64,000 nucleotides of DNA from Parcubacteria group bacterium Gr01-1014_8 (GTDB lineage: Bacteria > Patescibacteriota > Minisyncoccia > Phycocordibacterales > UBA2100): positions 1 to 64,000 of the forward strand of contig VMGC01000005.1 in NCBI GenBank assembly GCA_007376385.1. The letters run 5' to 3'. This document shows, in pieces, positions 1 through 55,721 of this stretch. Position numbers and translations under genes: made by a program. Within the stretch, counting starts at the first letter, position 1. Every line of letters starts with the position of its first letter. Below the pieces are notes generated by a model that saw only the letters and a list, made by a program, of their open reading frames with translations, had not been told where the DNA came from and made no database searches.

Positions 1-185
1 GCAGAACGTCCGCATGAGTCGCTCTCGCTGCGATCTCCGCTTCAATGTATCATTGCTGCATTACCGGCACGAGAGTGCCAAATGTACTGGACCCGTACAC
101 TTGCTTGACAATAATTGCGTTAGGGTGCATAAAGCCACATAAGGGAAACCAGCGCAATTACACTATAATAAATAATTGCCTGGAC

Positions 186-1565
186 ATGAAAGTTATGCAG
201 AATGTGTGCCTTGCAGCGGGTGCGAGCGTGATATTGCTCGCAGCTGTTTTTCTTGTATCGGTAACATTGCCGCTTGCAGTTTCGTATCATGATGGAGTCT
301 TTGCATTTAATTCTACACAAATAGCGGGAGCGAGTGGAGACGGCTCAGGAGATGGAAGCGGTGATGGTTCGGGTGACGGCAGTGGAGACGGCTCGGGAGA
401 CGGTTCCGGCGATTCAAGCGGCGACAGTGGTGGGGATTCAGGAGGAGACAGCGCAGGTGATTCTGGTGGGGATAGCGGTGGGGATAGCGGTGGGTGTTGC
501 GGTGATTCCGGGGGTGATTCAGGATGTTGTGGCGATTCCAGCGGCGACAGTTCAGGTGATTCAACCGGAGATTCTACAGGTGACAGTACAGGCGGCTGTT
601 GCGACGGGGGCGGCTACGAACAGGCTTCTTACTACGGACAGGCACAATACTATTCACAGCCGCACTACTACTCACAAGGAGACTACTATTCCGAGGCCGG
701 ATATTACTCACAAGGCGACTATTATTCTGAAAGTCACTACTACTCACAAGGAGACTACTATTCCGAATCGAGCTATTACGCCGAACCTTCGTACTACTCG
801 CAAGGTCACTACTACTCACAGGGGTCGTACTGCGACGATGACAGCAGTGGGGATTCTTCAGGTGGAGATGGAGGAGACGGATGCTACTCGCAATCAAGCT
901 ACTACACCCAGCCTGGATATTATGATCAGGGAAGCTATTACAATCAGGGCAACTATTACAACCAGGGTAGCTACCACTCGCAGTCCTACTATCAGAGCTA
1001 CTATGACCGTGACGAACCGACGTGTTGGATAGAAATTGATTCAGACAACTATTGGTACGATAACTACAACTACGATTACTATTACGACCAGAATTATGGA
1101 AATCAGTCAGCGTCGCTTCGCTGGGGCTCATCCTACGCGACGTCTGCGGATCTGACAGACGTAGGCTCAGTCCCAACGAGTGGATCTCGAACAGTGTATC
1201 CAAACGGACCACGAACATACACGCTGACCGTATATGGCTCAGGAGGTTCGGACACGTGCAGCGCGTATTTCACGCCGCATCACGCTTCTCCGCCAGTAGT
1301 TCACAACGCACCGTATGTTGCTCTCACACAGATCCCATACACTGGATTTGGACTCGGACCAGTAGGGGATACATTCGCTTGGTTCTCCTTGGTGAGCGCA
1401 GCGTTCGCAGGTGCGGTCGCAGTGATGCATCTTAAAGGGCCCGGCATGGCGTTCGCCATAGGCTCGCTTATTCCGCAGATCCCTTCATTTAAACTTCCGA
1501 GTTTCGGGGCAAAAACTAAGCCTAGAAAGCGTCTCGTGTTGCCTGGGCAGAGGGAGGAGGAATAG
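186..1565 (+). CDS. Secreted/cell-surface low-complexity repeat protein. Signal peptide MKVMQNVCLAAGASVILLAAVFLVSV, (SGDG)n repeats, CC-pairs, YYSQ-type Tyr-rich decapeptide repeats, a ~90-aa conserved Cys-containing domain, then IPYTG + hydrophobic segment + basic tail (sortase-like sorting signal).
   Basis: ORF 45..1565. Internal ATG at 186 precedes a signal-peptide-like segment. Repeats read directly from the translation. C-terminal domain shared with the ORF at 1739..2437. Confidence 0.6.
   Translation: MKVMQNVCLAAGASVILLAAVFLVSVTLPLAVSYHDGVFAFNSTQIAGASGDGSGDGSGDGSGDGSGDGSGDGSGDSSGDSGGDSGGDSAGDSGGDSGGDSGGCCGDSGGDSGCCGDSSGDSSGDSTGDSTGDSTGGCCDGGGYEQASYYGQAQYYSQPHYYSQGDYYSEAGYYSQGDYYSESHYYSQGDYYSESSYYAEPSYYSQGHYYSQGSYCDDDSSGDSSGGDGGDGCYSQSSYYTQPGYYDQGSYYNQGNYYNQGSYHSQSYYQSYYDRDEPTCWIEIDSDNYWYDNYNYDYYYDQNYGNQSASLRWGSSYATSADLTDVGSVPTSGSRTVYPNGPRTYTLTVYGSGGSDTCSAYFTPHHASPPVVHNAPYVALTQIPYTGFGLGPVGDTFAWFSLVSAAFAGAVAVMHLKGPGMAFAIGSLIPQIPSFKLPSFGAKTKPRKRLVLPGQREEE
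337..600 (+). repeat. Tandem 12-nt coding repeats (ggagacggctca-like) encoding (SGDG)n / (GGDS)n
   Basis: Direct reading of nucleotide and protein sequence. Likely length-variable. Confidence 0.7.
630..840 (+). repeat. Tandem ~30-nt coding repeats encoding YYSQ-x-x-YYSE decapeptides
   Basis: QAQYYSQPHYYSQGDYYSEAGYYSQGDYYSESHYYSQGDYYSESSYY... in translation. Confidence 0.6.
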
Positions 1566-1738
1566 AGGCCCTGGAACCGGCCTTTGCCTGCTTTTCTGAG
1601 CAAAAAGGGGCTAACCTCGTCAGCACTTGCATTTTTCTAGAATCGTTGTACTGTGCTCGGAGATGTTCAAATATGTGCCACCCCTATGGTGCTATTATTA
1701 AAAGTATTACTCGCTTGGAGGGAAACCAGCGAACACGT

Positions 1739-2437
1739 ATGAATAAAGAAAAACTAGTCTTGAGAGTACGGAATCGCTCGATAGAGGCGATGATGGCCGT
1801 CGCGCTTTTTTGCGCAGTGTTTGCCGTTACTCCTTTCGCATCTGCGAGCGGCTCCGATTATTATTACGACAATAATTACTATCAGGGCTCGTACAACGAT
1901 AATTACTACAATTACGGTAATTACAATTACAACAAGCCTACGTGCTCGATGACACTCACGTATGGTACTCCACGTACGTCGCAGAATTACAATTCGATCT
2001 ACGACGAACCTGCAACCTTGAGTTGGACCACGTCGTATGCGAATTCAGCATACATTTCTCCAGACGTTGGGTCTGTGGGAATCAGCGGTTCACGCATCGT
2101 ATATCCGCGAGGAAACCAAACCTACACGATGCGCGTGAACGGCTCATGGGGCGAAGGAAATTGTCAGGTAACTGCGGTTCATCCGTACGCGTCTGTCTAC
2201 AACAGCTTCTACCATTCGCAGCCCTACGTTCAGCCGTACAATTACGGATACACGTATCCTGCAGTGCCAGCGGTATCGTATGTAGCGCTCAAACAGATGC
2301 CATACACTGGCGTCGGCTTCGGACCTATGGGTACAGCGATGTTGTGGCTCTCAATCATTCTTCTTGGCGCAGTAGGCGCAGGAGCGATCGCAACACGAAA
2401 CGAAACCCTTCGAAAGCTCGTTTTCTTGCGCGGCTAA
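1739..2437 (+). CDS. Paralog of the upstream surface protein: signal peptide (…AVTPFASA), Tyr/Asn-rich region, the same conserved Cys domain (KPTC…SWTTSYANSA…DVGSV…SGSR.VYP.G.TYT), MPYTG + TM + basic tail.
   Basis: ORF 1646..2437. Start moved to ATG 1739, which has GGAGG 8 nt upstream. Domain alignment to gene 1 done by eye. Confidence 0.6.
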   Translation: MNKEKLVLRVRNRSIEAMMAVALFCAVFAVTPFASASGSDYYYDNNYYQGSYNDNYYNYGNYNYNKPTCSMTLTYGTPRTSQNYNSIYDEPATLSWTTSYANSAYISPDVGSVGISGSRIVYPRGNQTYTMRVNGSWGEGNCQVTAVHPYASVYNSFYHSQPYVQPYNYGYTYPAVPAVSYVALKQMPYTGVGFGPMGTAMLWLSIILLGAVGAGAIATRNETLRKLVFLRG

Positions 2438-3681
2438 ACGCTTCCACGCGAGCGAATTTCTTCCCTGATGCGTGATAGGAACTCCTCGCACTTTTGTGCG
2501 GGGAGTTTTCCTTTATCGCGGCTCTCCACGGTGATTGTCTGTGAATTCACTTCTTCGTCGCCAACGACGACAAGGTAGGGAATTTTCTCGACTTTTCCGG
2601 CACGAATGCGTTTGCCCAGAGTTTCTGCGGAATCGTCCATTTCGGCGCGGATCCTTTCATTCTTCAACATCGAGACTATTTCTTTTCCGTATGCAGCTTG
2701 TTTTTCTGAAACCGGAAGGACTCTAACCTGGATTGGAGAGAGCCAGAGAGGGAACGCTCCAGCATATTTCTCTATGAGGAATGCCATGATGCGCTCGATG
2801 GCGCCGATGGATGAGCGATGCACGACGAATGCGCGCTTCTTCGAACCGTCTGAGGCGACGTAGGTCAGGTCAAATCTGTCGGGCATGCAGAAGTCATATT
2901 GAACAGTGAACGCGGTATCTTCTTTGCCGTTGGCGTTCTTCATCTGCACGTCTATCTTTGGCCCATAGAATGCGGCCTCGTCCTTGGCTTCGATGTATTT
3001 TCCATCTCTTTTTTCCAATACCTCGCGCAGGAGTTTCTCGCTTTTTTCCCACGCAGCGTCGTTCTTGTAGTACTTTACTGTATTCGAAACGTCGCCCAAA
3101 GAAAGACGATAGCGATAGTCTTTTCCGTACGAAAGCCCGAAGACGCCCGCAATGTATTCGATGAGATTGAGGGCCTGACTCACTTCTTCTGCAGCCTGTT
3201 CTTCGCTGGCGCATACGATGTGAGCGTCAGCCAAGCAGAACGTGCGAACTCTCTGCAGTCCCATCAACTCGCCGGATTGTTCGTAACGGTACAATTGCGC
3301 AAGTTCGGCAATGCGCATCGGGAGTTCTCGATAACTTCGAGGTTTCGAGAGATAGAGTTCAAAGTGGTGCGGGCAGGTCATCGGGCGGAGCATGAATTCG
3401 TCGTCGTCAGTGACTATTGGGGGGTACATTGAGTCTTTGTAGTGAGGGTAGTGCCCAGACTTTTTGTAGAGGTCTAGTTTTGCGATATCAGGGGTTTTCA
3501 CGTGCATATAGCCGCGCTTTATTTCCTCATCAATGACGAATCTCTCGAGTTCGCGGTAGATTGCCGCTCCCTTTTCGGTGAAGAGGGGAAGTCCTTTCCC
3601 TACCGTGTCCGAAAATGTGAAAAGGTCCAGCTCGCGTCCAAGCTTTTTGTGATCTCTCTCGCTCATCTCGTTGTCTGCCAT
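2434..3681 (-). CDS. thrS: Threonyl-tRNA synthetase, short form (class II catalytic core + anticodon-binding domain; no N-terminal TGS/editing domain)
   Basis: Class II aaRS motifs and ThrRS-like core (…FMLRPMTCPHH…, …HRSSIGAIERIMAFLIE…). Start taken at MADNEMSER (ATG 3681). Confidence 0.8.
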   Translation of the reverse strand: MADNEMSERDHKKLGRELDLFTFSDTVGKGLPLFTEKGAAIYRELERFVIDEEIKRGYMHVKTPDIAKLDLYKKSGHYPHYKDSMYPPIVTDDDEFMLRPMTCPHHFELYLSKPRSYRELPMRIAELAQLYRYEQSGELMGLQRVRTFCLADAHIVCASEEQAAEEVSQALNLIEYIAGVFGLSYGKDYRYRLSLGDVSNTVKYYKNDAAWEKSEKLLREVLEKRDGKYIEAKDEAAFYGPKIDVQMKNANGKEDTAFTVQYDFCMPDRFDLTYVASDGSKKRAFVVHRSSIGAIERIMAFLIEKYAGAFPLWLSPIQVRVLPVSEKQAAYGKEIVSMLKNERIRAEMDDSAETLGKRIRAGKVEKIPYLVVVGDEEVNSQTITVESRDKGKLPAQKCEEFLSRIREEIRSRGSV

Positions 3682-3689
3682 ATATAAAA

Positions 3690-3905
3690 TGTATGTAACT
3701 AAAAATGCCCAAGCGAACGTACGATTTTTATCTCGTACACTCGCTAGGGCGATCTCGGACCGCGGTTCCACCTAGCTTTCCGCCGTTTGGCGGACACTTC
3801 TTCAACGGTCAGATTAGGCTTTCGCTCGCGCTCTCGCGCATTCCCGGTTGGTAGCCGAGACAATCTCTAACTCCACCATCGTAACGCGGCTTATCTTTGC
3901 GGTCA
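3690..3905 (-). promoter_or_regulatory. Putative T-box riboswitch leader (Thr specifier ACC) upstream of thrS
   Basis: Minus-strand AGGTGGAACCGCGG at 3759..3772 matches the T-box core (A)GGGUGGNACCGCGG. Upstream AGAGA (S-turn-like) and a candidate specifier ...GGCUACCAACCGG... Stem-loops follow. Confidence 0.45.
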
Positions 3906-4590: not shown

Positions 4591-4712
4591 TATGACCGAC
4601 ATACGATGTCGGTCATAGAGGGTTATCCACTCGGGGTTACTGCTCCCAATGATTCGACTTACAATGTTCGACTTACGATGTCGGTCACTAGATGTCGGTC
4701 ACTACTACATTT
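4591..4712. repeat. REP cluster: one full REP (TATGACCGACATACGATGTCGGTCATA, 4591..4617) plus degenerate REP units (…CGACTTACGATGTCGGTCACTAGATGTCGGTCAC…)
   Basis: Direct sequence comparison with the REP at 3908. Confidence 0.7.
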
Positions 4713-5232
4713 CTAAAACCCGCATGAGCGCGTCAATACGTGTAATGTATTGTGTCTGCAAATTGATGTCTTTGAAGACGTCCGGTGTGACAAGCTCACC
4801 ACGCTGCAGCTTTTGTAAATCGTTTTGCGCTTTTGTAAGCGTCGCGATTGTCTTTTCCTTGAGTTTAGAAAAGACAGCTTCTGACATAAGTGGTCGAGCC
4901 ATGTATGTGTCAAAAGCGTGAAGTATATTATCCCCCGCTATGTCCTCATTTCCTTTCCATTTCAACAATTCTTCAATGCCTGTTTCCACAACCTTTCTTG
5001 CCAAATCTCTATCGGTGCCATGCGTGTTCTCGTCGAGCAACATCTTTTTTGCTTTTTCAGTAAGGACAAGGAGTGTTTCGCCGCCTGGGTAATCTCCGCC
5101 ATAGGAGTCTCTCGCTTTTATCATTTGTTGTGCGAGTCGCTGTGCTCTTTCGTCCCGGAATCCTTCCCAGTCGTTGCTTCCGCGTCTCTCTATCTCCTGC
5201 ATGTCGCCATTATAACGCTTTGGCGCGGTCAA
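4705..5232 (-). CDS. Hypothetical protein (175 aa). Alternative start at MQEIERRG (5202), which is preceded by TATAAT.
   Basis: ORF only; no recognisable domain. Confidence 0.35.
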   Translation of the reverse strand: MTAPKRYNGDMQEIERRGSNDWEGFRDERAQRLAQQMIKARDSYGGDYPGGETLLVLTEKAKKMLLDENTHGTDRDLARKVVETGIEELLKWKGNEDIAGDNILHAFDTYMARPLMSEAVFSKLKEKTIATLTKAQNDLQKLQRGELVTPDVFKDINLQTQYITRIDALMRVLEM

Positions 5233-8200
5233 CCACGAAACTCGTCTCGCCGTTGCGGTTTGAGAATTTGCCTTTCAGCATGACGCAGGAGCCGGGGGTA
5301 AAGAGCGAGCTGTTTTCTTGGAGCGTGCGCGGAAATGCCACTATCTCAACGCCGCCGGAAAAATCGGCAAGTTTTGCGAACACCATCTTTTCGCCGTTCT
5401 TTGTGAGGATGGACTGCACAGTCTCGAAGAATCCCGCGATGACCGTTTCGACGCCGTGGGGCATCTTTTCCCGCGCTTCTTTAAGGTTCATCTTTTGCCT
5501 CGCAAGCTTCTCCTTGTGTTTATCCAAGGGGTGGCCGGACACATAAAAACCGAGGAGTTCCTTTTCCCATGCCAATTTTTCTTCAATGCTTGCCGCCTCC
5601 TTTGAAACGAGAGGAAGTTCCCGCGAAATCGTCGCCGACTCCGCGCCGAAGAGCGAGCCCTGGTCAACGGGCGCGCTCAGGCTTTCTCGATGATACAAAA
5701 GAAGCATGTCAATATTTCCAAGGAGCGTATTCCTCTCGCCGAACTCGTCCAGTGCTCCCGACATGATGAGCGATTCAAGTGATTTCTTATTCAAATTCCT
5801 GTCGGTTATGCGAATGAGAAAATCGCCGATGGAGACATAGCGGCCATTTTTCTCGCGTTCTGAAATAATGGAATCAGAGACACCCGTGCCGAAGTTTTTT
5901 ATGGAGTAGAGGCCAAAACGTATGGTCGAATGGTCCGTTACGGTAAATGTACCTCGACTTTCATTTACCGACGGCGGCTGTACCGCGAGCCCCATGCGGG
6001 AACATTCGACAACAACTTCGGCTATCTTTTCAACATCCCCAGCGTCCGCAGTGAGTACTGCTGCCATGTAATCGACCGGGTAGTTTGCTTTCATGTAGGC
6101 TGTCTTGTACGCAAGATTTCCGTACGAAGCGGCGTGTGCTCGTCCGAATCCATACGCCGCAAACGTCTCGATCTGTTCCCACAATTTTTGTGCGGCAGTC
6201 GGGGACATGCCATTTTTTATAGCTCCCTTTGTAAGGGTTTCTTTTTGCGCCGCCATTTCTTTGGGAATCTTCTTCCCCATCGCCTTTCGTAATTTGTCGG
6301 CCTCGAGCCACGTGTAGCCCGCAAGTTTTATGGCGATCTCGAGTACATCGTCCTGGTAGACGATAACGCCGTAACCGTTTTTGAGAATTGGCTCCATTCG
6401 TGGGTCGAGATATTTGACGAGCGTTGGATTGTGCTTTCGTTCAATGTACGCGGGAATGAAGGCCATCGGACCGGGGCGGTAGAGGGCGACCATCGCGTTT
6501 ATGTCGTGTATGGTCGAGGGTTTTAGCTCCATTAAATAGTTTGTCATACCACCGCCGGCGAGTTGGAATACGCCGAGTGTTTCACCACGCGAGAGCATTG
6601 AATAGGTTGCAGGGTCATCGAGGGGAATTCTATCGAGGTTGAGGAGTGTGCCGAAACGCTCCTTGACGCGCTGTACCGAGTCGGCAAGGACAGATAGGTT
6701 TGTGAGCCCGAGAAAGTCGAATTTTAAGAGGCCTGCGTCTTCGACGGCATACATGTCGTACTGAGTGATGGTTTTGCCTCCTTTTGGGTCAAGCTGGACT
6801 GGGACGAAATCAGTGACTTTACCGGGCGCAATAACAACGCCCGCCGCATGGACGCCAACGTGCCGCGCGTTGCCCTCGACTCTCTTTGCAAGATCGATGA
6901 TCTCGCGTGCATCCGCGTCTTTTTTGTATGCCTCTTTTAGTTCGGGGATGCTCCCTAGCGAACTGTCGATGGTAACGGGGAAGCCCTGCTTCCCGAAGGG
7001 TATCATCTTTGCGATCCTGTCCCCCGTTCCGTACGAATGGCCAAGCGCTCGCGCAACATCCCGCACTGCAGCGCGGGCGAGCATTGTGCCGAATGTTCCT
7101 ATCTGTGCGACGTGGTCCTCTCCGTATTTGTTGCGCACGTAGTCGATGAGTTCATCGCGTCTGTTATCCGCGAGGTCCATATCAATATCGGGAGCAGAAG
7201 GCCGTTCCGGATTCAAAAATCTCTCGAAGGGGAGTTGATACTCGATAGGATTTACCGTTGTTATGCCGCACAGGAAGGAGACCAATGAGCCCGCTGCCGA
7301 CCCCCTCGTGTTCGTATATATACCGACGTCGCGCGCGTGACGGAGGAGATCTGCAACAACGAGGAAATACGGCGAGTATCCCTTGCTGGCTATGACGGAA
7401 AGCTCATAGTCAACTCGTTCGACAAGTGCAGAGGTTTGCGCGATCCCTCGTTCGGTGAAACCCGCATATGCGAGGGCGCGAAGCTCCGTGTCGTGCGATG
7501 AATGAGGGGGGATGGGAAAATCGGGAAATACCCATCGGCCGAGCTCGAGTTCAACATTGCATGCATCAGCGATCTTTTTGGAATTTTCCAGCGCCTCAGG
7601 GATATCAGCGAATAGTTTTTGTGCGCGTGCTTTGGTGATGAACGAGAAATCATGTGCGTTCTCTTCGAACTCGCGGTTCAGCGTACGGCCAGTGCGGATG
7701 TTGTTCACGAGTTCGCGTGCTAAGGCGTCGTCTTTCTTGAGGTAGTAGCACTCATGGGCAGCAACTGGCGCGATACCAGCCACACGGACGAGCTCGAGAA
7801 TGGATTTCATCGCCGCGTCATGCCCCTCTATTTCCGGGTGCCTGGTTATCTCGGCAAAGCAATCTGAACCGAATATCCCGCGATACCAAGCGCACGTTTG
7901 CTTCGCCTTGTCTTTAGCCCCGTCTTTCATTGCGCGGGCGTGCTCGCCCGAGTACGCGGGGAGTATCGCGATGAGCCCCCCTTTGTAGGTTTGGAGCAGT
8001 TCGTGATCTATCCGCGGACGATAGTAAAAGCCCTCAAGATGGGCGAGCGAGACCAGCTGAATAAGGCTTTTGTAGCCGGCGGGGTCCTTCGCGAGAAGAA
8101 CAAGCCGTGAATGTCTGTCATCCACGCGATGTTCTTTGTCATGTCTCGTTCTCGGAGCGACAAAAAAATCCACGCCAATAATGGGCTTGATTCCCTGTTC

Positions 8201-8386
8201 CTTGCATTCTTTATAGAAGTCGATAGCTGCATATAAGTTGCCGTTGTCGGTGAGCGCGAGTGCTTCTTGGCCATCCGCTTTGGCTGCCCCTACAAGCTCT
8301 GGGATCTTCGGAAGGGCCTCCAAGAGCGAGTAGTGACTATGGGTATGGAGGTGTACGAAATCTGCTGTCTCTGCACGCGTAGACAT
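5210..8386 (-). CDS. dnaE: DNA polymerase III alpha subunit (PHP domain + polymerase core)
   Basis: N-terminal PHP motif HLHTHSHYSLLEA; length 1058 aa; typical DnaE architecture. Confidence 0.9.
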   Translation of the reverse strand: MSTRAETADFVHLHTHSHYSLLEALPKIPELVGAAKADGQEALALTDNGNLYAAIDFYKECKEQGIKPIIGVDFFVAPRTRHDKEHRVDDRHSRLVLLAKDPAGYKSLIQLVSLAHLEGFYYRPRIDHELLQTYKGGLIAILPAYSGEHARAMKDGAKDKAKQTCAWYRGIFGSDCFAEITRHPEIEGHDAAMKSILELVRVAGIAPVAAHECYYLKKDDALARELVNNIRTGRTLNREFEENAHDFSFITKARAQKLFADIPEALENSKKIADACNVELELGRWVFPDFPIPPHSSHDTELRALAYAGFTERGIAQTSALVERVDYELSVIASKGYSPYFLVVADLLRHARDVGIYTNTRGSAAGSLVSFLCGITTVNPIEYQLPFERFLNPERPSAPDIDMDLADNRRDELIDYVRNKYGEDHVAQIGTFGTMLARAAVRDVARALGHSYGTGDRIAKMIPFGKQGFPVTIDSSLGSIPELKEAYKKDADAREIIDLAKRVEGNARHVGVHAAGVVIAPGKVTDFVPVQLDPKGGKTITQYDMYAVEDAGLLKFDFLGLTNLSVLADSVQRVKERFGTLLNLDRIPLDDPATYSMLSRGETLGVFQLAGGGMTNYLMELKPSTIHDINAMVALYRPGPMAFIPAYIERKHNPTLVKYLDPRMEPILKNGYGVIVYQDDVLEIAIKLAGYTWLEADKLRKAMGKKIPKEMAAQKETLTKGAIKNGMSPTAAQKLWEQIETFAAYGFGRAHAASYGNLAYKTAYMKANYPVDYMAAVLTADAGDVEKIAEVVVECSRMGLAVQPPSVNESRGTFTVTDHSTIRFGLYSIKNFGTGVSDSIISEREKNGRYVSIGDFLIRITDRNLNKKSLESLIMSGALDEFGERNTLLGNIDMLLLYHRESLSAPVDQGSLFGAESATISRELPLVSKEAASIEEKLAWEKELLGFYVSGHPLDKHKEKLARQKMNLKEAREKMPHGVETVIAGFFETVQSILTKNGEKMVFAKLADFSGGVEIVAFPRTLQENSSLFTPGSCVMLKGKFSNRNGETSFVVDRAKAL

Positions 8387-9209: not shown

Positions 9210-9491
9210 ATGGTTGTACGAATGCGGGTAAACCGCTCCAAGACAGGTAAGCGCCGAAGTCATCATGCGCTTGCTGCTGCTCGTCCCGTCACATGCGATT
9301 GCGGCGCAGAGCGGCTTAGCCACCGGGCATGCCCGTCGTGCGGCAAATATAACGGCAAGGTCATCATTGATGTCGTGGCTCGCGCAAAGAGACAGTCCAG
9401 GCGCGACAAGAAACGACAGAAAGAATTGCGCGCAGCGGGCCAGGAGAAGGACACTACTAATAAAGAAACTAAGCAAGAAGTAACCACGTAA
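9210..9491 (+). CDS. rpmF: 50S ribosomal protein L32 with Lys/Glu-rich C-terminal extension
   Basis: MRVNRSKTGKRRSHHAL…C.CG…CPSCG zinc-ribbon signature. Start is 9210 (leaderless) or 9222. Confidence 0.75.
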   Translation: MVVRMRVNRSKTGKRRSHHALAAARPVTCDCGAERLSHRACPSCGKYNGKVIIDVVARAKRQSRRDKKRQKELRAAGQEKDTTNKETKQEVTT

Positions 9492-33115: not shown

Positions 33116-35080
33116 ATGGTTGCGTCTTTTTTTGTTGCCTCGCTGATTTTGCCGCTTGTAGCAGGAGTTGCTGCGCTTCTTCTCCTGCGTACAAAAGCGG
33201 GTCACATGCTCACGCAATTGGTTTTTGCTCTCGGCGGCCTAAGCGGTGTCGTTGGCGCAACGTTGTTCTATGCGAGCGATGGAGCGAGCACCGTCGTTTT
33301 TCATACGGCACTCTTTAGTCTTGTTGTCGGGACGCTTTCAGTATTCTTTTTGGGAATTATATCCGTCGGTGTTCTTCTCACATCGTTGTATGCGCTTGAG
33401 GGTCTGCGCAGATACAAAAGCGTCTATTCACTCCCGTGGCTTGCCGTTGCGTCTGCTTTTTTCATATTCGGCATGCAGGCAACGGTCATGGCCTCCTCTG
33501 TTGCGGGTTTTCTCGTTGCGTGGGAGTTGATGTCCGTCGCCGCATATTTCCTCGTTATAGCGGATGGCACTGAAGAATCACTGCATGCAGGCTTCTCGTT
33601 TTTTATCATGGCGCACATCGGGTTCGCGAGTCTTGTCGCAGGATTTCTACTTCTTTCTGCGGGCAATCCCTTTGCAGAGTGGCCGGAAGTAGCGCTCGCC
33701 GCAAAAACCATGACGCCGGCGACGCTCTCCGTCGCGTTCTCGCTTTTATTCATCGGCTTCGGCTCAAAAGCGGGTCTTGCCCCGCTCCATCAGTGGCTGC
33801 CCATGGCGCATCCGCAAGCGCCGAGCCACGCTTCGGCGTTGCTATCCGGCGTCATGTTGAAAGTCGCGCTTTTTGGGTTCATTCAATCGCTGTTCTTGTT
33901 TCCATCGGTTCCCCTATCATGGGGCGTTGTTGTCCTTGTGGTAGGACTCGTGTCGGCTTTCTTCGGCGTTCTGCACGCAGTCGTCGAGAGCGACATGAAA
34001 CGAGTACTCGCATGGAGCAGCATCGAGAACATGGGCCTTATTTTCTCTGGCGTAGGCGCAGCAATGATATTGCGCACGTTGCCGTACGAGGCAGGACCCG
34101 TACTCGCATCATCTATCGCCATTTTCGTTGCGCTCCATATCATCAATCACTTTCTCTTCAAGAGCGGGCTCTTCATGGCTGCGGGCGTTATCGTATCGGA
34201 AGTGCATTCTCGTGACATGGATATCATGGGGGGTTTAGCGCAAAAGTGGCCCATCTTCTCCGGCGTTTTTCTAGCTCTCGCGCTCGCAGCGGCAGCGTTG
34301 CCTCCGTTCGGTACATTCTTTGGCGAGTGGATGTATCTGCAATCTCTCGCACTTGCGCTTGTCGGTCTGCCTTTGCCGCTTTCCGTCGTTGCGGGACTCG
34401 TCCTCGCAGCCGTCGCATTGGTGAGCGGCCTTGCTATCGTTGCGTTCGTAAAAATGTTCTCAAGCGTCTTTTTAGGGAGAGCTCGAAATGAACATGCGGA
34501 ACATGTGGGGATGATGCCAATGTCTCTTATGTGGCCGCCAATGGTGTGCGCGATTCTTTCGATTGTTGCCGGGGTGCTTGCATTTCCTTTTTTTTCATCG
34601 CATTTTATGGATGGCGCGAGCATCATGCAAGATGTCGTTATCGTACAAGGCGCCTCCATGAACGCTTGGATCCTGTGGGCGCTTATCGCGGGTCTTGCGA
34701 TCATAGCGCTTCTTCTCGCGCGTTTTCTTCGCGTGCCGGTTCGCATTACGGATACGTGGGATTGCGGGCAGCCGCTCACGTCGCGAATGGAATATACGGC
34801 AACTGGATTCTCGGCACCGTTCCGCTTTTTCTTCCGTGCGTTCTTAGTATCGCGAAAAGAAATGATCGTTACGCCTATCTCTTCAGAGAATCCGTGGATA
34901 GCGAACCGGCGTCTCGAGTGGAGCATTACCTCAACATGGGAGCGGCTCTTTTATCGCCCCGTCGGGCAGGCATTGCTTCGTTTTGCTGAATACGCGCGCA
35001 AGTTCCAAAGCGGCGTCGTCCAGATGTACCTTTTGTTTGTTGTTATCGCTCTTGTCGGAGCATTCATTTTTGCGCTATGA
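33116..35080 (+). CDS. NuoL/HyfB/MnhA-like antiporter-type membrane subunit (654 aa)
   Basis: Multi-TM proton-pumping-subunit signature (…WLPMAHPQAPSHASALLSGVMLK…). Confidence 0.8.
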   Translation: MVASFFVASLILPLVAGVAALLLLRTKAGHMLTQLVFALGGLSGVVGATLFYASDGASTVVFHTALFSLVVGTLSVFFLGIISVGVLLTSLYALEGLRRYKSVYSLPWLAVASAFFIFGMQATVMASSVAGFLVAWELMSVAAYFLVIADGTEESLHAGFSFFIMAHIGFASLVAGFLLLSAGNPFAEWPEVALAAKTMTPATLSVAFSLLFIGFGSKAGLAPLHQWLPMAHPQAPSHASALLSGVMLKVALFGFIQSLFLFPSVPLSWGVVVLVVGLVSAFFGVLHAVVESDMKRVLAWSSIENMGLIFSGVGAAMILRTLPYEAGPVLASSIAIFVALHIINHFLFKSGLFMAAGVIVSEVHSRDMDIMGGLAQKWPIFSGVFLALALAAAALPPFGTFFGEWMYLQSLALALVGLPLPLSVVAGLVLAAVALVSGLAIVAFVKMFSSVFLGRARNEHAEHVGMMPMSLMWPPMVCAILSIVAGVLAFPFFSSHFMDGASIMQDVVIVQGASMNAWILWALIAGLAIIALLLARFLRVPVRITDTWDCGQPLTSRMEYTATGFSAPFRFFFRAFLVSRKEMIVTPISSENPWIANRRLEWSITSTWERLFYRPVGQALLRFAEYARKFQSGVVQMYLLFVVIALVGAFIFAL

Positions 35081-35180
35081 CCCCATGAGAGAAACGATCT
35101 AAATTCTTATGAATCACACCAATTGTAACGAGATGCAGTGCTTCGCTCAGGATCATATCTATTTTTCTCACGGGGTATGA
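35078..35180. repeat. IR element copy E: TGACCCCATGAGAGAAA …69 nt… TTTCTCACGGGGTATGA. Spans the stop codon of the upstream gene and the ATG of the downstream gene.
   Basis: Same arm consensus and ~70-nt spacing as copies A–C. Confidence 0.5.
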
Positions 35181-36124
35181 CCGTCACGATACTCATTTTG
35201 CAGTTCTTCTTAGTGCTCGCGGCAGCGCCCGCGACGGTGGGGATCGTGCGTAAAATAAAAGCGCGCTTTCAGAACAGGCGCGGCGCACGCATCACGCTTC
35301 CATACTGGTCGCTCCTTTCGTTGCTTCGAAAAGAAATGACCATCACGCGGCACAGTTCGTGGGTGTTTCGCATCGTTCCGTTCGTGGTCTTTGGAAGCGC
35401 ACTCGCGCTAGCAGCGCTTATTCCTTCTTTTGCTGTAGGAATTCTGGCCGCGAGCATGAGCAACATTTTTCTTGTCGGCGCCGTCGCCGCGCTCGGCTCC
35501 GCGTTCCTTGTTTTTGGCGGCATGGATACCGGAAGCACGTTCGGCAACATGGGCTCCAGCCGCGAGATGACGATAGCCTCATTGATAGAGCCTGCCGTAT
35601 ACGTATCGCTCGCTTCTCTTGCAACGCTCTCCGGTTCGTGGAGTTTGGATGGCATCGCACTATTTTTTGCCGCAAGTAAATGGGTGGAGATAATACTTCC
35701 GGCCTCACTTACGTTAGTGGCCCTCGTCTTTGTGCTGCTCGCAGAAAATGCGCGCTATCCGGTGGATAATCCTGCAACGCACCTTGAGCTCACAATGGTG
35801 CATGAGGCGATGGTCTTAGAATATTCCGGCCCATACCTCGCAATGCTCGAATACGCGTCGTGGATAAAATTGACTGCGATGCTGATGCTCGTGATGAATC
35901 TCGTAGCGCCGTGGGGTATTCTGACTTCTCCATTTGCTCTTGGGGCCACTCTCATCGCGCTCGTTGCATTTGCCATTAAGCTCGGCGTCGGTGCATTCGT
36001 CATTGCGTTCATCGAATCAACGATCGTAAAAATGCGCTTCTATCGAATGCAGGAATACATGTCTCTTGCGCTCATCGTTGCGCTCGGCGGTCTTGCTATT
36101 TCGCTTGTCTCAATTGCCGTATGA
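35177..36124 (+). CDS. NuoH/HycD-like membrane subunit
   Basis: 8-TM NuoH-like pattern. Start at MTVTILIL (the ORF begins at 35138). Confidence 0.7.
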   Translation: MTVTILILQFFLVLAAAPATVGIVRKIKARFQNRRGARITLPYWSLLSLLRKEMTITRHSSWVFRIVPFVVFGSALALAALIPSFAVGILAASMSNIFLVGAVAALGSAFLVFGGMDTGSTFGNMGSSREMTIASLIEPAVYVSLASLATLSGSWSLDGIALFFAASKWVEIILPASLTLVALVFVLLAENARYPVDNPATHLELTMVHEAMVLEYSGPYLAMLEYASWIKLTAMLMLVMNLVAPWGILTSPFALGATLIALVAFAIKLGVGAFVIAFIESTIVKMRFYRMQEYMSLALIVALGGLAISLVSIAV

Positions 36125-36774
36125 GTGCGCAGCTTACATTCGACCTCCCGACATTATTTGCATGCGGCATGCTGCTTCTATCGTTGATAATGGTAAGCCG
36201 CATGCGTCTTTCGTCGCTTGTCGGTATTTTCCGTTACCAGAGCGCGCTTCTTGCCATCTATGCGGTCATCCTTGCGATCTCTCATGATGAACCAGAATTG
36301 CTCGCGGTCGCCCTTTTTATTGCACTTGTGAAAGTGGTCCTCATACCAGCGTTTCTCATTCGCGTCGCAAAGCAAAATGGCGTGTCAGAGAGGCTTGATT
36401 CGTATTTGCGTCCGACGACGTCCACATCAGTAGGTTTGGTTGCCATCCTTCTCGCGTTTGCCGGAGCAGAGGCGACATTTGCTACGAGCGCGGGGCTCAT
36501 CATAGTTGCGTGCGTTTTTGCTCTCATTCTGACGGGGCTTATTCTTCTCATTACGCGCAAAGACATGTTCGGGCAGGGAATCGGATTTCTCGTGATGGAG
36601 AACGGCATCTATGCATTCGGGCTCGCTCTTGCTGGCGGAATGCCCATCTTTGTCGAGCTTGCAGTTCTGTTTAACCTTCTTGCGCTCACCGTTCTGATGG
36701 TTCTGTTGTTCCGAGTCGCGCAAAAGGTCCACTCTTCTGTTTCAACCGAGCATTTTAAGCGACTCATCGATTGA
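36121..36774 (+). CDS. HyfE-like small membrane subunit (NuoK-like C-terminal part)
   Basis: Hydrophobic 217 aa with GFLVMENGIYAFGLAL motif. Confidence 0.6.
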   Translation: MSAQLTFDLPTLFACGMLLLSLIMVSRMRLSSLVGIFRYQSALLAIYAVILAISHDEPELLAVALFIALVKVVLIPAFLIRVAKQNGVSERLDSYLRPTTSTSVGLVAILLAFAGAEATFATSAGLIIVACVFALILTGLILLITRKDMFGQGIGFLVMENGIYAFGLALAGGMPIFVELAVLFNLLALTVLMVLLFRVAQKVHSSVSTEHFKRLID

Positions 36775-36775
36775 T

Positions 36776-38227
36776 ATGACTGTATCTCTGCTCCTCATGG
36801 TTATTCTTGTCGCTGCTGCGATGCCGTATCTCTGTGCCACAACGAAACAGGTGCGTTCGCTCGCGATGATAGGAAGTACGAGTATTTTCCTGCTTTCTCT
36901 CTTTGTCGGGATTCCGGCGCTGTTTGCTCCAGCCGCTGTTACCGGCGCGGGTTTGTGGTACATCGATGCTCTGGGCGGGTTCTTTGTTCTCTTGATCGGA
37001 TTCGTTCAGTGGACAGGGACGCTCGTAAGCATGACGTACATGAAGGAAGAAGAGGCGCACGGGACGGTAACCGCGGCTAAGGTCAAACGATACTTCGTAC
37101 TCTTGCATCTTTTCGTCCTCGCGATGATGCTTGCTGTCGTCTCGAATAACACAGGCATCGTGTGGGTTGCGCTCGAGGGCACGACGCTGGTGACGACACT
37201 CTTGGTCGGTTTTTACGAACGAAAAGAATCTCTTGAGGCTGCCTGGAAATATCTCATTCTGTGCTCATCGGGCATTGCGTTCGGATTCTTGGGAATTCTT
37301 GTCATGTTCTATGCGGCTTCGACGACGGGGGCGGAAGGCGTTATCGGCATGACGTGGTCAGGGTCGGCACTTCTTGAAGCGGCGCTTCCCGTAAGCGTCG
37401 TAAAGATAGCGTTTGTGCTCTTGCTGATAGGGTTTGGCACCAAGGTTGGTCTTGTCCCGATGCACGCCTGGCTCCCGGACGCCCATTCAAGCGCGCCATC
37501 GCCAATTTCTGGCATGCTCTCGGGGGTGCTTCTCAACGCCGCGTTATTGCCGATACTTCGTTTCAAAAATATTGTTGACGGCGTTGCCGCGCCTGGTTGG
37601 ACCGATCAGCTTCTCATCGTATTCGGGGTTCTCTCTATCGCGCTTCCTGCAGCGTTCGTACTTGTTCAGCGCGATTACAAAAGGTTGCTCGCATATTCGA
37701 GCATTGAACACATGGGGCTCATTACGCTGTCGGCAGGACTCGGCGCGATTGGTTCCGTCGCCGCGACAATTCACATTGCGGGTCACGCTCTCGCGAAATC
37801 TGCGCTCTTCTTTGCGGCGGGAAACATCCTCTTGAAATATCACAGCACTAAATTCGAGAATGTCTCGGGGGTTACACGCATATTGCCTTACACAGGAGGG
37901 CTCTTTCTCGTTGCATTTTTGGCGCTTCTCGGCGTTCCGCCTTCACCCTTGTTTGCGAGCGAATACTTTATGGCGGCTGCTGCGATAGGCACGCATCCCT
38001 ACGCCACCGGCGCCGTCTTTCTCGCCCTCACTATCGTATTTGCCGGATTTGTGCGGCTCTTGATGCCGATGTTGTTTGGGGAGAGTCCTGACAGAGGTGG
38101 GCGGGAGAGATGGAACATATCGCACACCGCTATCACGTTGAATATCGTTTTACTTATCGGACTTGGTATTGCTCTCTGGATTGCTCCTGGAGAGGCGATC
38201 ATCCAACGCATTGCAGAAATTATTTAG
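36776..38227 (+). CDS. NuoN/NuoM/HyfF-like antiporter-type membrane subunit
   Basis: …MHAWLPDAHSSAPSPISGMLSGVLLNAA… signature. Confidence 0.75.
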   Translation: MTVSLLLMVILVAAAMPYLCATTKQVRSLAMIGSTSIFLLSLFVGIPALFAPAAVTGAGLWYIDALGGFFVLLIGFVQWTGTLVSMTYMKEEEAHGTVTAAKVKRYFVLLHLFVLAMMLAVVSNNTGIVWVALEGTTLVTTLLVGFYERKESLEAAWKYLILCSSGIAFGFLGILVMFYAASTTGAEGVIGMTWSGSALLEAALPVSVVKIAFVLLLIGFGTKVGLVPMHAWLPDAHSSAPSPISGMLSGVLLNAALLPILRFKNIVDGVAAPGWTDQLLIVFGVLSIALPAAFVLVQRDYKRLLAYSSIEHMGLITLSAGLGAIGSVAATIHIAGHALAKSALFFAAGNILLKYHSTKFENVSGVTRILPYTGGLFLVAFLALLGVPPSPLFASEYFMAAAAIGTHPYATGAVFLALTIVFAGFVRLLMPMLFGESPDRGGRERWNISHTAITLNIVLLIGLGIALWIAPGEAIIQRIAEII

Positions 38228-38231
38228 AAAT

Positions 38232-39803: not shown

Positions 39804-40721
39804 ATGTATTGGGGAGAAGACCTGGATGAGCGCCTGTATGAGGGGATAGAGGAGACGCAGATAGAGGGTGTCGAGCCAATTCGAGCGGGACTACCCATAA
39901 CTCACTGGAGTTATTCGTCTCTCATGTGTTTTCTTAGGAATCCGCTGGCCTGGTATAAACGTTATGTCGAGAAGGTGTATGACACACCCTCGTCCCCCGC
40001 AGGTATTATCGGGCGCGCCGCGCACGTTGCGTTGCAGCATTTTTATGGTCTGCCTGTGCGTGACCGCACGCAGACAGGCGGCATCGCGAAAGGGGGAGCA
40101 ATAGATCTAGGTCTGGAATATTTGAGGAATGTGCCGGATTTTGAGGTGAATTTTGGGAAAGCGAAGACAAAAAGGGAAAAAAAGGAGAAACGAGCCAGCA
40201 TGGAGCGCGAATATCTGCAGGCGATCGGTTTTTATCTTGAAAAGCCGCCGAAGTATAATGTTGTTGCGATAGAGGAAAAATCAACGATAAAGGTAGATGG
40301 CCTCAAACTTCCCATACGCGCTATCTCTGACCTTGTGGTTCGTTCCGCCGTCGATAAAAAAGCACTCGACATCGTGGACCATAAATTCGTCGATTCGTTC
40401 AGTTCTCTTGGGGGACAAAAAACACTCTTTATCATACAAGCGATATTCAACTACTACACAGTCCAGAATACACACGGGAAGCCTGTGCGGCGTTTTATTT
40501 TGCAAGAGTGCAGAAAAAGAAGGAACGCGGATGGTAAAAGCCAGATGCGACGCTACATCATCGAATATGCCAAGTGCAAAGAAGAGTTCGCCATCTTTCA
40601 CCGTCTTATACGCGATGCGACTGCCGAAATAGCTAGAGAGCGGCTGTATCTTCCAAATCCATCCGACATGTTCGAAGGCGAGAATTCCTTCGACATCTAT
40701 AAACTTGGACTTGCTGGTTAA
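39804..40721 (+). CDS. PD-(D/E)XK nuclease-family protein (RecB/Cas4-like fold, 305 aa)
   Basis: ISDLVVRSAVDKKALDIVDHKFVD core motif. Weak assignment. Confidence 0.45.
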   Translation: MYWGEDLDERLYEGIEETQIEGVEPIRAGLPITHWSYSSLMCFLRNPLAWYKRYVEKVYDTPSSPAGIIGRAAHVALQHFYGLPVRDRTQTGGIAKGGAIDLGLEYLRNVPDFEVNFGKAKTKREKKEKRASMEREYLQAIGFYLEKPPKYNVVAIEEKSTIKVDGLKLPIRAISDLVVRSAVDKKALDIVDHKFVDSFSSLGGQKTLFIIQAIFNYYTVQNTHGKPVRRFILQECRKRRNADGKSQMRRYIIEYAKCKEEFAIFHRLIRDATAEIARERLYLPNPSDMFEGENSFDIYKLGLAG

Positions 40722-47593: not shown

Positions 47594-47759
47594 TTATTGG
47601 CGAGCGTTGCGAGTGAAATGAACGTGTACTCATGTTCATTTCCGAGCCGAGGAGCCAAAATACGGTTAATACCGCGCAGCAAGCTGCGCACGTGTGCGAG
47701 CGAAGCGAGCTCATCAGCAGGTCCAGGGCTTTGCCCTGGGGTTTAATACCGTTTATTTT
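47594..47759 (+). ncRNA. Structured RNA element, copy 2: the same three hairpins with covarying stems, ending in a hairpin + T-rich tract (terminator-like), in a convergent intergenic region
   Basis: See copy 1; here followed by GGTTTAATACCGTTTATTTT. Confidence 0.5.
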
Positions 47760-54447: not shown

Positions 54448-54459
54448 GTTTGGAGGATA

Positions 54460-55023: not shown

Positions 55024-55034
55024 AGTCGGATGGG

Positions 55035-55709: not shown

Positions 55710-55721
55710 TGTCAGAGTATA

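What the first reader, a model, noticed from the sequence alone, without database searches (positions are those of the whole stretch)
45..2437. Tandem paralogous tyrosine-rich repeat surface proteins with a non-canonical [IM]PYTG sorting signal and shared upstream 12-mer
Both proteins have a signal peptide, long low-complexity regions (perfect (SGDG)n and YYSQ decapeptide arrays in gene 1; YYDNNYY-type in gene 2) and a shared ~90-aa Cys-containing domain (PTC…SW..SYA.SA…DVGSV..SGSR.VYP.G.TYT). Both end in (T/K)Q(I/M)PYTG followed by a hydrophobic helix and a basic tail, the architecture of sortase substrates but with PYTG instead of LPxTG. The DNA-level tandem repeats (12-nt and 30-nt) are probably length-hypervariable. 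The exact 12-mer GGGAAACCAGCG precedes both genes, at the promoter -35 region of gene 1 and the RBS region of gene 2, indicating duplication with its 5' region or a shared regulatory site.
Basis: seen in the sequence. Interest (0 to 1): 0.55.

Follow-up and report, generated by a model that had tools for sequence, protein, structure and literature searches.

The report
Likely sortase-anchored tyrosine-rich surface proteins
Two neighbouring genes of an uncultured Parcubacteria (Kaiserbacteria-like) bacterium encode tyrosine-rich surface proteins whose tail carries an undescribed, lineage-wide [I/V/M]PYTG membrane module that in related genomes sits a few kilobases downstream of a sortase gene, making them the best current candidates for what sortases attach to the cell surface in this group.

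Summary
Window 186-1565 and 1739-2437 are tandem paralogues (BLASTP 3e-23). Each has a signal-peptide-like N-terminus, Tyr/Ser/Gly/Asn-rich low-complexity repeats, a two-Cys Ig/PKD-like beta-sandwich, and a Q[IM]PYTG + TM + basic tail. The exact 12-mer precedes both genes.

Corrections: the Tyr repeat is a hexapeptide (18 nt), not a decapeptide (30 nt). The DNA repeats are only 72-79% alike, so hypervariability is not supported.

The tail belongs to an undescribed module, PYVxLxQ[IVM]PYTG-FDFGPxGNAxYW-TM. It occurs in 636 protein clusters (141 at E<=1e-10), almost all from Kaiserbacteria-like Parcubacteria. No Pfam or NCBIfam model covers it.

In 34 of 40 related loci with at least 7 kb of upstream sequence, a Pfam-confirmed sortase lies upstream on the same strand. 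It keeps the catalytic His/Cys/Arg but reaches no NCBIfam class cutoff. All three sortase-seeded loci carry PYTG genes downstream. Sortase anchoring is therefore the best explanation (about 0.6).

Caveats: I found no sortase in 79 kb of this contig. Most family members also have about 100 residues after TG, ending in a conserved PRIVIxR motif, which is unlike classical sorting signals.

The 12-mer is a conserved upstream (promoter or leader) motif of these genes in 8 genomes.

Verdict: new variant of a known kind.

The parts
143..154 (+). 12-mer GGGAAACCAGCG, copy 1, 31 nt upstream of the gene 1 ATG. A conserved upstream (promoter or leader) motif.
   Evidence: only two copies in the window; the same motif (<=1 mismatch to GGGAAACC[AG]GCG) lies 12-29 nt upstream of gene-1-type PYTG genes in L053, L062 and L082. 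It lies outside the IS element, which ends at window 86.
186..1565 (+). Gene 1, 459 aa. Order of parts: signal-peptide-like N-terminus, (SGDx) repeats with CC doublets, YYSxxx hexapeptide repeats, one two-Cys Ig-like domain, TQIPYTG, TM, 72-aa tail.
   Evidence: Orthologues with the same N-terminus and repeats: L003 3-980, L082 17639-20017 (793 aa), L053, L062.
330..587 (+). SGDG/SGDS/GGDS tetrapeptide repeats (12/24-nt period). CC doublets at nt 495-500 and 525-530; a third at 597-602 lies just downstream of this span.
   Evidence: TRF 333-494, 72-100% matches.
630..971 (+). YYSxxx hexapeptide arrays (630-827 and 900-971). Period is 18 nt with 36/72-nt higher order.
1017..1262 (+). Two-Cys Ig/PKD-like domain of gene 1 (PTC ... 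DTC), paralogous to that of gene 2.
1326..1433 (+). Sorting-type module of gene 1: TQIPYTG (1326-1346), FGLGPVGDTFAW, TM (aa 396-416).
   Evidence: Gene 1's module supplied row 1 of the query profile A2; the rest of the family matches that profile.
1720..1731 (+). 12-mer GGGAAACCAGCG, copy 2, 7 nt upstream of the gene 2 ATG.
   Evidence: An exact copy lies 10 nt upstream of the L003 orthologue. Near-exact copies lie 6-7 nt upstream in L004 and L060.
1739..2437 (+). Gene 2, 232 aa (= P0001, G01um10148_877). Order of parts: signal peptide, Y/N-rich stretch, Ig-like domain, Y/P-rich linker, KQMPYTG, TM, basic tail.
1937..2173 (+). Two-Cys beta-sandwich (aa 67-145) with invariant Cys69 and Cys142.
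   Evidence: AlphaFold2 predicts 7 strands with pLDDT about 85-89. Best Foldseek PDB hits are PKD/Ig domains: 1l0q, E 0.014, prob 1.00.
2291..2437 (+). Short-tail sorting-type module of gene 2: KQMPYTG (2291-2311), VGFGPMGT, TM (aa 196-220), then RNETLRKLVFLRG.
   Evidence: (87.7 bits, E 3.4e-20).

Best explanation
Gene 1 and gene 2 are Sec-exported cell-surface proteins of a Kaiserbacteria-like Parcubacterium.

Proposed pathway:
1. The proteins are exported by the Sec system.
2. The Ig/PKD-like domain is probably stabilised by a disulfide between its first and last strands. DsbA-like and DsbB genes are in the window.
3. The C-terminal TM helix holds the precursor in the membrane.
4. A lineage-specific sortase recognises [I/V/M]PYTG, cleaves between Thr and Gly, and transfers the protein to the cell wall (or another amine acceptor).
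5. The Tyr/Ser/Gly/Asn-rich low-complexity region is left exposed as a coat or adhesin.

Shown here:
- The protein architecture and the paralogy.
- The family-wide conservation of the module.
- The conserved same-strand sortase neighbourhood in relatives.
- The conservation of the sortase catalytic residues.

Inferred:
- Export.
- The disulfide.
- Cleavage and the acceptor.
- Adhesive function.
- Presence of the sortase in this particular genome.

The two genes, and their orthologues elsewhere, also share an upstream (promoter or leader) motif, AAGGGAAACC[A/G]GCG. It most likely makes them co-regulated.
For: - Motif fit: P, T and G are invariant and Y nearly so. Among the 150 best family members the pentapeptide is IPYTG 132 times, VPYTG 11 and MPYTG 5. 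This is the [LIVM]PxTG pattern followed by a hydrophobic helix.
- Modularity: the module is attached to different cores. Examples are 1-10 Ig-like domains, a SpaA-like domain, and various repeat types.
- Sortase neighbourhood: a sortase ORF lies 2-8 kb upstream on the same strand in 42 of 76 loci. The figure is 34 of 40 for loci with >=7 kb of upstream sequence.
- Sortase identity: PF04203 scores 66-82 bits against a cutoff of 26.6. His, TxxTC and Arg are >=95% conserved in 39 sequences.
- Reciprocal test: 3 of 3 loci seeded from the sortase carry PYTG genes within 10 kb downstream. One of them is a 793-aa orthologue of gene 1.
- No competing substrate: in about 1.16 Mb of related loci, the only xPxT[GASN] + TM + basic C-termini are [ILMVT]PYTG.
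- No competing enzyme: the genes between the sortase and the PYTG genes have no Pfam family, apart from a single HTTM hit.
- Classical shape of gene 2: 41 residues after TG, consisting of a 7-aa spacer, about 21 hydrophobic residues, and a tail with 3 Arg and 1 Lys.
- Related genome: the assembly that shares the three-gene cluster next to ThrRS (L003) has the sortase plus a long-tail PYTG gene on another contig (L017).
- Published background: more than half of CPR genomes encode a sortase family (PMC6744442).
Against: - No sortase in the window, in the 5.4 kb to the contig end, or in 10 kb beyond the window.
- This genome's sortase could not be identified among 877 homologues.
- The curated LPXTG-anchor models do not match.
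- The residues after the presumed cleavage site (FDFGPxGNAxYW) are as conserved as the motif itself.
- 109 of 150 members carry more than 60 residues after TG. Of these, 84 end in P[RK][IL][VTI][ILV]x[RK]. This is unexpected for a segment that would be discarded.
- The sortase-PYTG linkage lies inside a block of conserved housekeeping synteny (GyrB ... ThrRS-DnaE). Proximity could therefore partly reflect inherited gene order. The loci are not phylogenetically independent.
Confidence: 0.6

Rival explanations
1. The proteins are permanently membrane-anchored type I surface proteins. The PYVxLxQIPYTGFDFGPxGN stretch is a structural or interaction motif next to the membrane and is not cleaved. 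The TM helix and conserved cytoplasmic tail connect the extracellular part to a cytoplasmic partner. The nearby sortase is a coincidence of conserved gene order.
For: - The median distance from TG to the C-terminus is 104 aa.
- 84 of 109 long tails end in the conserved PRIVIxR motif. Short tails share a conserved R..F.EK....LR stub.
- Conservation is strong immediately after TG.
- No LPXTG-anchor HMM matches.
- No sortase was found in 79 kb around the window genes.
- The sortase and the PYTG genes are separated by 2-8 kb of variable genes, within a housekeeping synteny block.
Against: - The invariant P-x-T-G directly before a TM helix is exactly the sortase recognition pattern.
- The sortase is on the same strand in all 42 loci, and in 85% of loci with enough upstream sequence.
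- The reciprocal test gave 3 of 3.
- The variable intervening genes show that linkage has survived local turnover.
- No other candidate sortase substrates were found in these loci.
Confidence: 0.28
2. The tandem PYTG proteins are subunits of a sortase-polymerised pilus or fibre, with the neighbouring sortase acting as a class C-like polymerase.
For: - Ig-like domains, with a weak SpaA-fold hit in gene-1-type orthologues.
- Up to 4 tandem paralogues per locus.
- A sortase in the same locus.
- I/V at motif position 1, as in known pilin signals (own knowledge).
Against: - No conserved Lys or pilin-motif column is present. Mature gene 2 has only two Lys and neither is conserved.
- Hundreds of residues of low-complexity sequence are unlike pilins.
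- Only one sortase is found per locus.
- The sortase scores 31-36 bits against the class C model, whose cutoff is 160, and scores slightly better against class E.
Confidence: 0.07
3. The C-terminal module is the signal for a different sorting enzyme (exosortase, archaeosortase, rhombosortase-like, or a new protease) rather than for sortase.
For: - The layout is tripartite (motif, TM, basic cluster), as in PEP-CTERM, PGF-CTERM and GlyGly-CTERM signals (own knowledge).
- Several uncharacterised polytopic membrane proteins lie between the sortase and the PYTG genes.
Against: - No NCBIfam CTERM sorting-domain model matches.
- No exosortase or rhomboid Pfam hits appear among the neighbours on record.
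- The intervening membrane proteins are not conserved across loci.
- The motif itself is of the sortase type.
Confidence: 0.05

Closest known systems
LPXTG cell-wall sorting signal proteins of Gram-positive bacteria (MSCRAMM-type adhesins such as Clf/Sdr with Ser-Asp repeats) and their housekeeping sortases
   Same: - N-terminal signal peptide.
- Low-complexity repeat stalk; the (SGDx)n repeats gave a faint ClfB SD-repeat hit.
- Ig-like domains.
- An [LIVM]PxTG pentapeptide followed by a hydrophobic helix and basic residues.
- A sortase with the His/Cys/Arg triad encoded in the locus in relatives.
   Different: - Position 1 is I/V/M, never L, among the 150 best family members (a few LPYTG cases occur in related loci). 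Position 3 is an invariant Tyr.
- The flanks L-x-Q before the motif and FDFGPxGNAxYW after it are conserved.
- Most members have a 60-130-aa cytoplasmic tail with a conserved terminal PRIVIxR.
- TIGR01167/PF00746-type models do not match.
- The sortase falls below the cutoff of every NCBIfam class; the best is class E at 40-54 bits against a cutoff of 160.
- The host is a CPR bacterium with an uncharacterised envelope.
Class C sortase pilin signals (for example IPQTG, VPDTG and YPRTG in streptococcal or corynebacterial pilins; from my own knowledge, not tested here)
   Same: - A non-Leu hydrophobic residue at motif position 1.
- Tandem paralogous Ig-fold substrates next to a sortase gene.
   Different: - No pilin motif or conserved Lys.
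- Large low-complexity regions.
- The class C model is not matched at its cutoff.
Other tripartite C-terminal sorting signals (PEP-CTERM/exosortase, PGF-CTERM/archaeosortase, GlyGly-CTERM/rhombosortase)
   Same: - A short signature motif, then a TM helix, then basic residues.
- A lineage-specific signal shared by many otherwise unrelated surface proteins.
   Different: - The motif is of the sortase type.
- No such enzyme or model was detected.
- The long-tail form is not at the extreme C-terminus.
Pam pili of Saccharimonadia and Microgenomatia (bioRxiv 10.64898/2026.03.03.709456)
   Same: A CPR-restricted surface system built from Ig-like folds.
   Different: Pam pilins assemble by donor-strand exchange with chaperone-usher-like factors. 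No sortase, PYTG motif or TM tail is described for them. The lineages differ (Kaiserbacteria-like Parcubacteria here).

Membership tests
Sortase substrate (cell-wall sorting signal protein) | N-terminal Sec signal peptide | tested here: inconclusive
   Both proteins have a basic N-region followed by a hydrophobic stretch. Gene 2 has ASA|SG. Gene 1's hydrophobic stretch is long (aa 3-35) and could be an uncleaved anchor. No dedicated predictor was available.
Sortase substrate (cell-wall sorting signal protein) | LPXTG-type pentapeptide near the C-terminus | tested here: met
   IPYTG at nt 1332-1346 and MPYTG at nt 2297-2311. P, T and G are invariant across the family. This is the [IVM]PYTG variant, not LPXTG proper.
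Sortase substrate (cell-wall sorting signal protein) | Hydrophobic segment, then a short positively charged tail at the extreme C-terminus | tested here: inconclusive
   Gene 2 meets this, with 41 aa after TG ending RNETLRKLVFLRG. Gene 1 has 72 aa after TG, includes KTKPRKR, and ends REEE. In the family, 109 of 150 members have more than 60 aa after TG.
Sortase substrate (cell-wall sorting signal protein) | Match to curated anchor models (TIGR01167 / PF00746) | tested here: not met
   No hit at E<=1 for either protein. Among 40 family members there was one weak LPXTG_double hit.
Sortase substrate (cell-wall sorting signal protein) | Cognate sortase encoded in the same genome | not testable with these tools
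   I found none in the 79 kb of this contig that was inspected. In relatives, a sortase is present in 34 of 40 loci with >=7 kb upstream, and the reciprocal test gave 3 of 3.
Sortase substrate (cell-wall sorting signal protein) | Cleavage between T and G and covalent linkage to peptidoglycan | not testable with these tools
   Needs biochemistry or proteomics.
Kaiserbacteria-type PYTG module family (defined here) | Profile match to PYVxLxQ[IVM]PYTG-x-D/G-F-G-x-x-G-...-W + TM | tested here: met
   Gene 2 scores 87.7 bits, E 3.4e-20, against 1.84 billion representatives. Gene 1 was part of the query profile and aligns with all invariant columns: L, P, Y, T, G, W.
Kaiserbacteria-type PYTG module family (defined here) | Position in the conserved locus immediately upstream of, and convergent with, ThrRS-DnaE | tested here: met
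   Window genes 2434-3771 (ThrRS, minus strand) and 5210-8386 (DnaE, minus strand). ThrRS and DnaE clusters are each present in 67 of the loci analysed (window and L001-L004 included).
Kaiserbacteria-type PYTG module family (defined here) | Long cytoplasmic tail ending in PRIVIxR (majority form) | tested here: not met
   Gene 2 belongs to the short-tail class (0 of 41 short tails carry the end motif). Gene 1 has a third tail type ending LVLPGQ.EE, shared with L003 3-980.
Sortase-assembled pilin | Conserved pilin-motif Lys (YPKN-like) and E-box | tested here: not met
   No conserved Lys column is present in the alignment of gene 2 homologues.

The most novel reading that the evidence does not exclude
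The [IVM]PYTG-FDFGPxGN-TM-tail unit may be a Kaiserbacteria-specific two-part device. An unclassified CPR sortase with a new specificity (invariant Tyr at position 3, Leu absent from position 1 among the 150 best members) would release the ectodomain to the wall. The strongly conserved TM and cytoplasmic remnant, ending in PRIVIxR, would then have a function of its own, such as reporting surface-protein processing or docking to a cytoplasmic partner. Alternatively, the unit is not cleaved at all and defines a new class of CPR transmembrane surface receptors. In either case the Tyr-rich low-complexity ectodomains could be the adhesive coat that mediates attachment of these ultrasmall cells.
Probability: 0.2. 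Interest if true: 0.7.

Novelty: new variant of a known kind. Interest (0 to 1): 0.52.

Why it matters
- Published comparative genomics reports a sortase family in more than half of CPR/Patescibacteria genomes (PMC6744442). I found no paper in the searchable library that names its substrates or recognition motif, and none mentions IPYTG in this context.
- This finding gives a concrete, testable pairing. On one side is an unclassified sortase clade. On the other is a family of more than 600 protein clusters with an invariant PYTG module, confined to Kaiserbacteria-like Parcubacteria.
- It points to the likely major surface coat or adhesin proteins of organisms thought to live attached to other cells.
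- It supplies a profile that could annotate hundreds of 'hypothetical proteins'.
- It raises a mechanistic question: why is the part after the presumed cleavage site so conserved?

Tried and rejected
- **Pfam and NCBIfam on both proteins:** nothing found.
- **Rfam and tRNA scans of the window:** nothing found.
- **Word-indexed homology search with the C-terminal profile:** it was swamped by low-complexity TM words and returned 3 hits, missing known members. The exhaustive representative search replaced it.
- **Looking for this genome's own sortase:**
  - A motif scan for TLxTC found nothing in a real ORF.
  - Pfam on 40 window ORFs found no sortase.
  - A clade-specific sortase HMM run with --max against all ORFs of the window and L001-L004 found nothing.
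  - Extending 10 kb beyond the window found nothing.
  - A homologue search with the closest relative's sortase listed only the top 120 of 877 hits, and none was named Gr01-1014_8.
  - A cluster-member look-up of 10 unnamed NCBI hits was uninformative.
- **The idea that the 12-mer is part of the upstream IS element:** rejected. The IS terminal inverted repeat ends at window 86.
- **The 12-mer as a Shine-Dalgarno sequence:** judged unlikely. It lies 6-31 nt from the ATG, and most genes here lack an SD and appear leaderless.
- **The 12-mer as an ECF-type -35 element:** considered, but the spacing does not fit gene 2.
- **Short proteins with PYTG near the N-terminus (for example P0008):** taken to be truncated gene calls on short contigs, not a separate architecture.
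- **P0009 and P0015:** unrelated repeat proteins.
Full report
**Origin and gene models.**
- Gene 2 is identical to hypothetical protein G01um10148_877 of 'Parcubacteria group bacterium Gr01-1014_8'. The window lies on a 189,832-bp contig.
- Public gene calls give gene 1 as 186-1565 (459 aa) and gene 2 as 1739-2437 (232 aa).
- The longer ORF starting at 45 is read-through from an IS481-like element. Its 14-nt perfect terminal inverted repeat ends at window 86.

**Checking the observation.**
- The two proteins are paralogues (39% identity over 155 aa, E=3e-23).
- Both begin with a basic, then hydrophobic, N-terminus. Gene 2 has an ASA|SG site.
- Gene 1 contains a perfect (SGDG)6 that degenerates into SGDS/GGDS units with three CC doublets.
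- Gene 1 then has two arrays of YYSxxx hexapeptides. Tandem Repeats Finder reports periods of 12/24 and 18/36/72 nt with 66-83% matches. There is no 30-nt period, and the only perfect tract is 2.5 copies at 465-494.
- The 'decapeptide/30-nt' description is therefore wrong, and the DNA is too degenerate to predict slippage-driven hypervariability.
- Orthologues do differ greatly in repeat number. One example is the 793-aa L082 protein.
- Two independent assemblies of this population are identical over 11.7 kb. The Logan contig breaks inside the repeats.
- The shared domain (gene 2 aa 67-145) has invariant Cys at both ends. AlphaFold2 predicts a 7-strand beta-sandwich with pLDDT about 85-89.
- Foldseek finds only generic PKD/Ig folds. 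The best is the PKD domain of an archaeal S-layer protein, E 0.014.
- No Pfam or NCBIfam family matches either protein.

**The C-terminal signal is a family-wide module.**
- Syntenic loci in two related genomes (L003, L004) carry three tandem genes upstream of ThrRS. All three end in LxQ[IV]PYTG-(x)FGPxG-TM-basic, although their cores differ: three Ig-like domains, a SpaA-like domain, or one Ig-like domain.
- I searched a 56-position profile of the module against 1.84 billion representative proteins. It found 636 clusters at E<=1e-3 and 141 at E<=1e-10.
- The consensus is PYV[AS]L[ST]Q[IVM]PYTG-FDFGPxGNAxYW followed by a TM helix.
- P, T and G are invariant. The pentapeptide is IPYTG 132 times, VPYTG 11 and MPYTG 5.
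- No Pfam or NCBIfam model covers the module in any of 40 members tested.
- No paper in the library mentions IPYTG in this context, or sortase substrates of CPR bacteria.
- A scan of one genome per GTDB species found 210 confirmed sites. Most named records are Candidatus Kaiserbacteria or Paceibacterota; many others carry only generic or automatic labels.

**Departure from the classical sorting signal.**
- Only 41 of the 150 best members have <=60 residues after TG. The median is 104.
- Of the 109 long tails, 84 end in a conserved ...T.D.M....G.APRIVIxR motif.
- Short tails are a constant 41-42 aa with a conserved R..F.EK....LR stub. Gene 2 belongs to this class.
- Gene 1 has a third tail type (...KG.GM.AFA.G..IP.IP...LVLPGQ.EE), shared with its L003 orthologue.

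**Sortase linkage.**
- In the 76 related loci, an ORF resembling sortase lies upstream of the PYTG gene(s) on the same strand in 42 loci. The figure is 34 of 40 for loci with >=7 kb of upstream sequence. The median gap is about 3.4 kb.
- Pfam confirms these ORFs as sortase (PF04203, 66-82 bits against a cutoff of 26.6).
- They have an N-terminal TM anchor. His (FGHSS), T..TC and Arg are >=95% conserved.
- The sortases reach no NCBIfam class cutoff. The best is class E at 40-54 bits against a cutoff of 160.
- The locus order is GyrB> <CARDB membrane protein, sortase>, variable genes>, PYTG gene(s)>, <ThrRS <DnaE, >RNase HII >L32 >NusB.
- The window's two genes occupy the same position next to ThrRS.
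- I ran the reverse test from three sortase proteins on long contigs. All three loci carried PYTG genes within 10 kb downstream. L082 includes a clear orthologue of gene 1 followed by a gene-2-like gene.
- Across about 1.16 Mb of these loci, the only C-termini of the form xPxT[GASN] + TM + basic are [ILMVT]PYTG.

**The gap for this genome.**
- Upstream of gene 1 lie an IS element, SecG, a solute-binding protein and RNase J. The contig then ends.
- I found no sortase in the window, in those 5.4 kb, or in 10 kb beyond the far end.
- I could not identify this genome's sortase among 877 homologues.
- In the related assembly CAYJVW01, the ThrRS-adjacent cluster (L003) and the sortase with a long-tail PYTG gene (L017) are on different contigs. 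A separated arrangement is therefore plausible here, but it is unproven.

**The 12-mer.**
- GGGAAACCAGCG occurs only at 143 and 1720. The flanking sequences are unrelated, so it is not simple duplication residue.
- Allowing <=1 mismatch to GGGAAACC[AG]GCG gives 23 occurrences in the related loci. Nine of them lie 6-31 nt upstream of the ATG of a PYTG gene, in 8 genomes. The other 14 have no PYTG ORF downstream: 13 have no ORF of >=80 aa within 60 nt, and one precedes a 92-aa ORF without the motif.
- By my own calculation, about 0.02 such hits would be expected by chance in those upstream windows.
- The motif marks gene-1-type and gene-2-type genes but not the canonical long-tail genes.
- Most genes in this genome lack a Shine-Dalgarno sequence and have a -10 box just before the ATG, so they appear leaderless.
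It could alternatively sit at the 5' end of a transcript from an upstream TTGACA-N18 promoter.
- In gene-2-type genes it lies about 20 nt downstream of a TGnTAnnAT box, which would place it in the leader.
- Its role (protein or RNA binding site) is unknown. Shared regulation is the simplest reading.

**Verdict.**
- The most likely explanation (about 0.6) is that these are sortase-dependent surface proteins using a Kaiserbacteria-specific [IVM]PYTG signal.
- The main rival (about 0.28) is a non-cleaved type I membrane anchor with a functional cytoplasmic tail.
- Pilus assembly (about 0.07) and a different sorting enzyme (about 0.05) are minor alternatives.
- This is a new variant of a known kind. 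It is moderately interesting because it offers the first concrete candidate for a sortase-substrate pair in a CPR lineage.

Noticed in passing
window 1-108 (L001 4472-5520): An IS481-like element of about 1049 bp carries an HTH_32 + rve + rve_3 transposase and 14-nt perfect terminal inverted repeats (TACATTTGGCACTC). It ends about 100 nt upstream of gene 1. It explains the spurious 5' extension of ORF 45-1565 and may have disturbed the native upstream region and synteny.
   Followed up: partly
window 33116-39752: A cluster resembling a membrane-bound group-4 [NiFe]-hydrogenase, Mrp or complex-I module: two Proton_antipo_M subunits, a NuoH-like subunit, and a fused 30-kDa/49-kDa (NiFeSe_Hases) subunit. 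This is noteworthy in a CPR genome.
   Followed up: no
window 40718-41491 (-), 47046-47582 (+), 47759-48241 (-): A DsbA-like thioredoxin, a DsbB, and a type IV pilin (N_methyl) gene. The Dsb pair fits disulfide formation in the two-Cys surface domains.
   Followed up: no
window-wide gene starts (e.g. 4705-5202, 5210-8386, 9210-9491, 55035-55709, 57103-57699): Most genes lack a Shine-Dalgarno sequence and have a TATAAT/TATACT-like box 6-10 nt before the ATG. This suggests mainly leaderless mRNAs in this organism.
   Followed up: partly
window 53422-63749 and L084 11010-14699: A long run of de novo purine and thymidylate genes: FGAR-AT, AIRS, AIRC, SAICAR synthase, adenylosuccinate lyase, ThyA, DHFR, SHMT, dCTP deaminase. 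CPR bacteria are usually described as lacking nucleotide synthesis (PMC6744442).
   Followed up: no
window 495-500, 525-530, 597-602: Cys-Cys doublets are embedded in the SGD repeats of gene 1 (GGCCGDS). They recur near the N-terminal repeats of unrelated family members (P0021 FGCCGG, P0095 GGCCGS, P0108 SACCGAG). Possible metal binding or vicinal disulfides.
   Followed up: no
L006-L083, immediately upstream of the sortase gene (e.g. L007 3796-4797, minus strand): A TM-anchored CARDB-domain protein with a Tyr-rich C-terminus is divergently adjacent to the sortase in 32 loci. An L,D-transpeptidase (YkuD) lies between the sortase and the PYTG genes in 7 loci.
   Followed up: partly
L006 2975-3847, L007 5566-6210, L024 5061-5657: Secreted proteins made almost entirely of xVGH/xIGY-type tetra- or hexapeptide repeats are encoded directly downstream of the sortase in several genomes. 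They have no C-terminal anchor.
   Followed up: no
L003, L010, L014, L016, L017 and other TPA_asm records: Many genomes labelled 'uncultured Candidatus Saccharibacteria bacterium' share the Kaiserbacteria-type locus and synteny. These automatic labels are probably generic or wrong.
   Followed up: no
L004 4109-8566 and 12408-end: DnaE (1485 aa) and SMC in this relative carry intein (Intein_splicing + LAGLIDADG) insertions.
   Followed up: no
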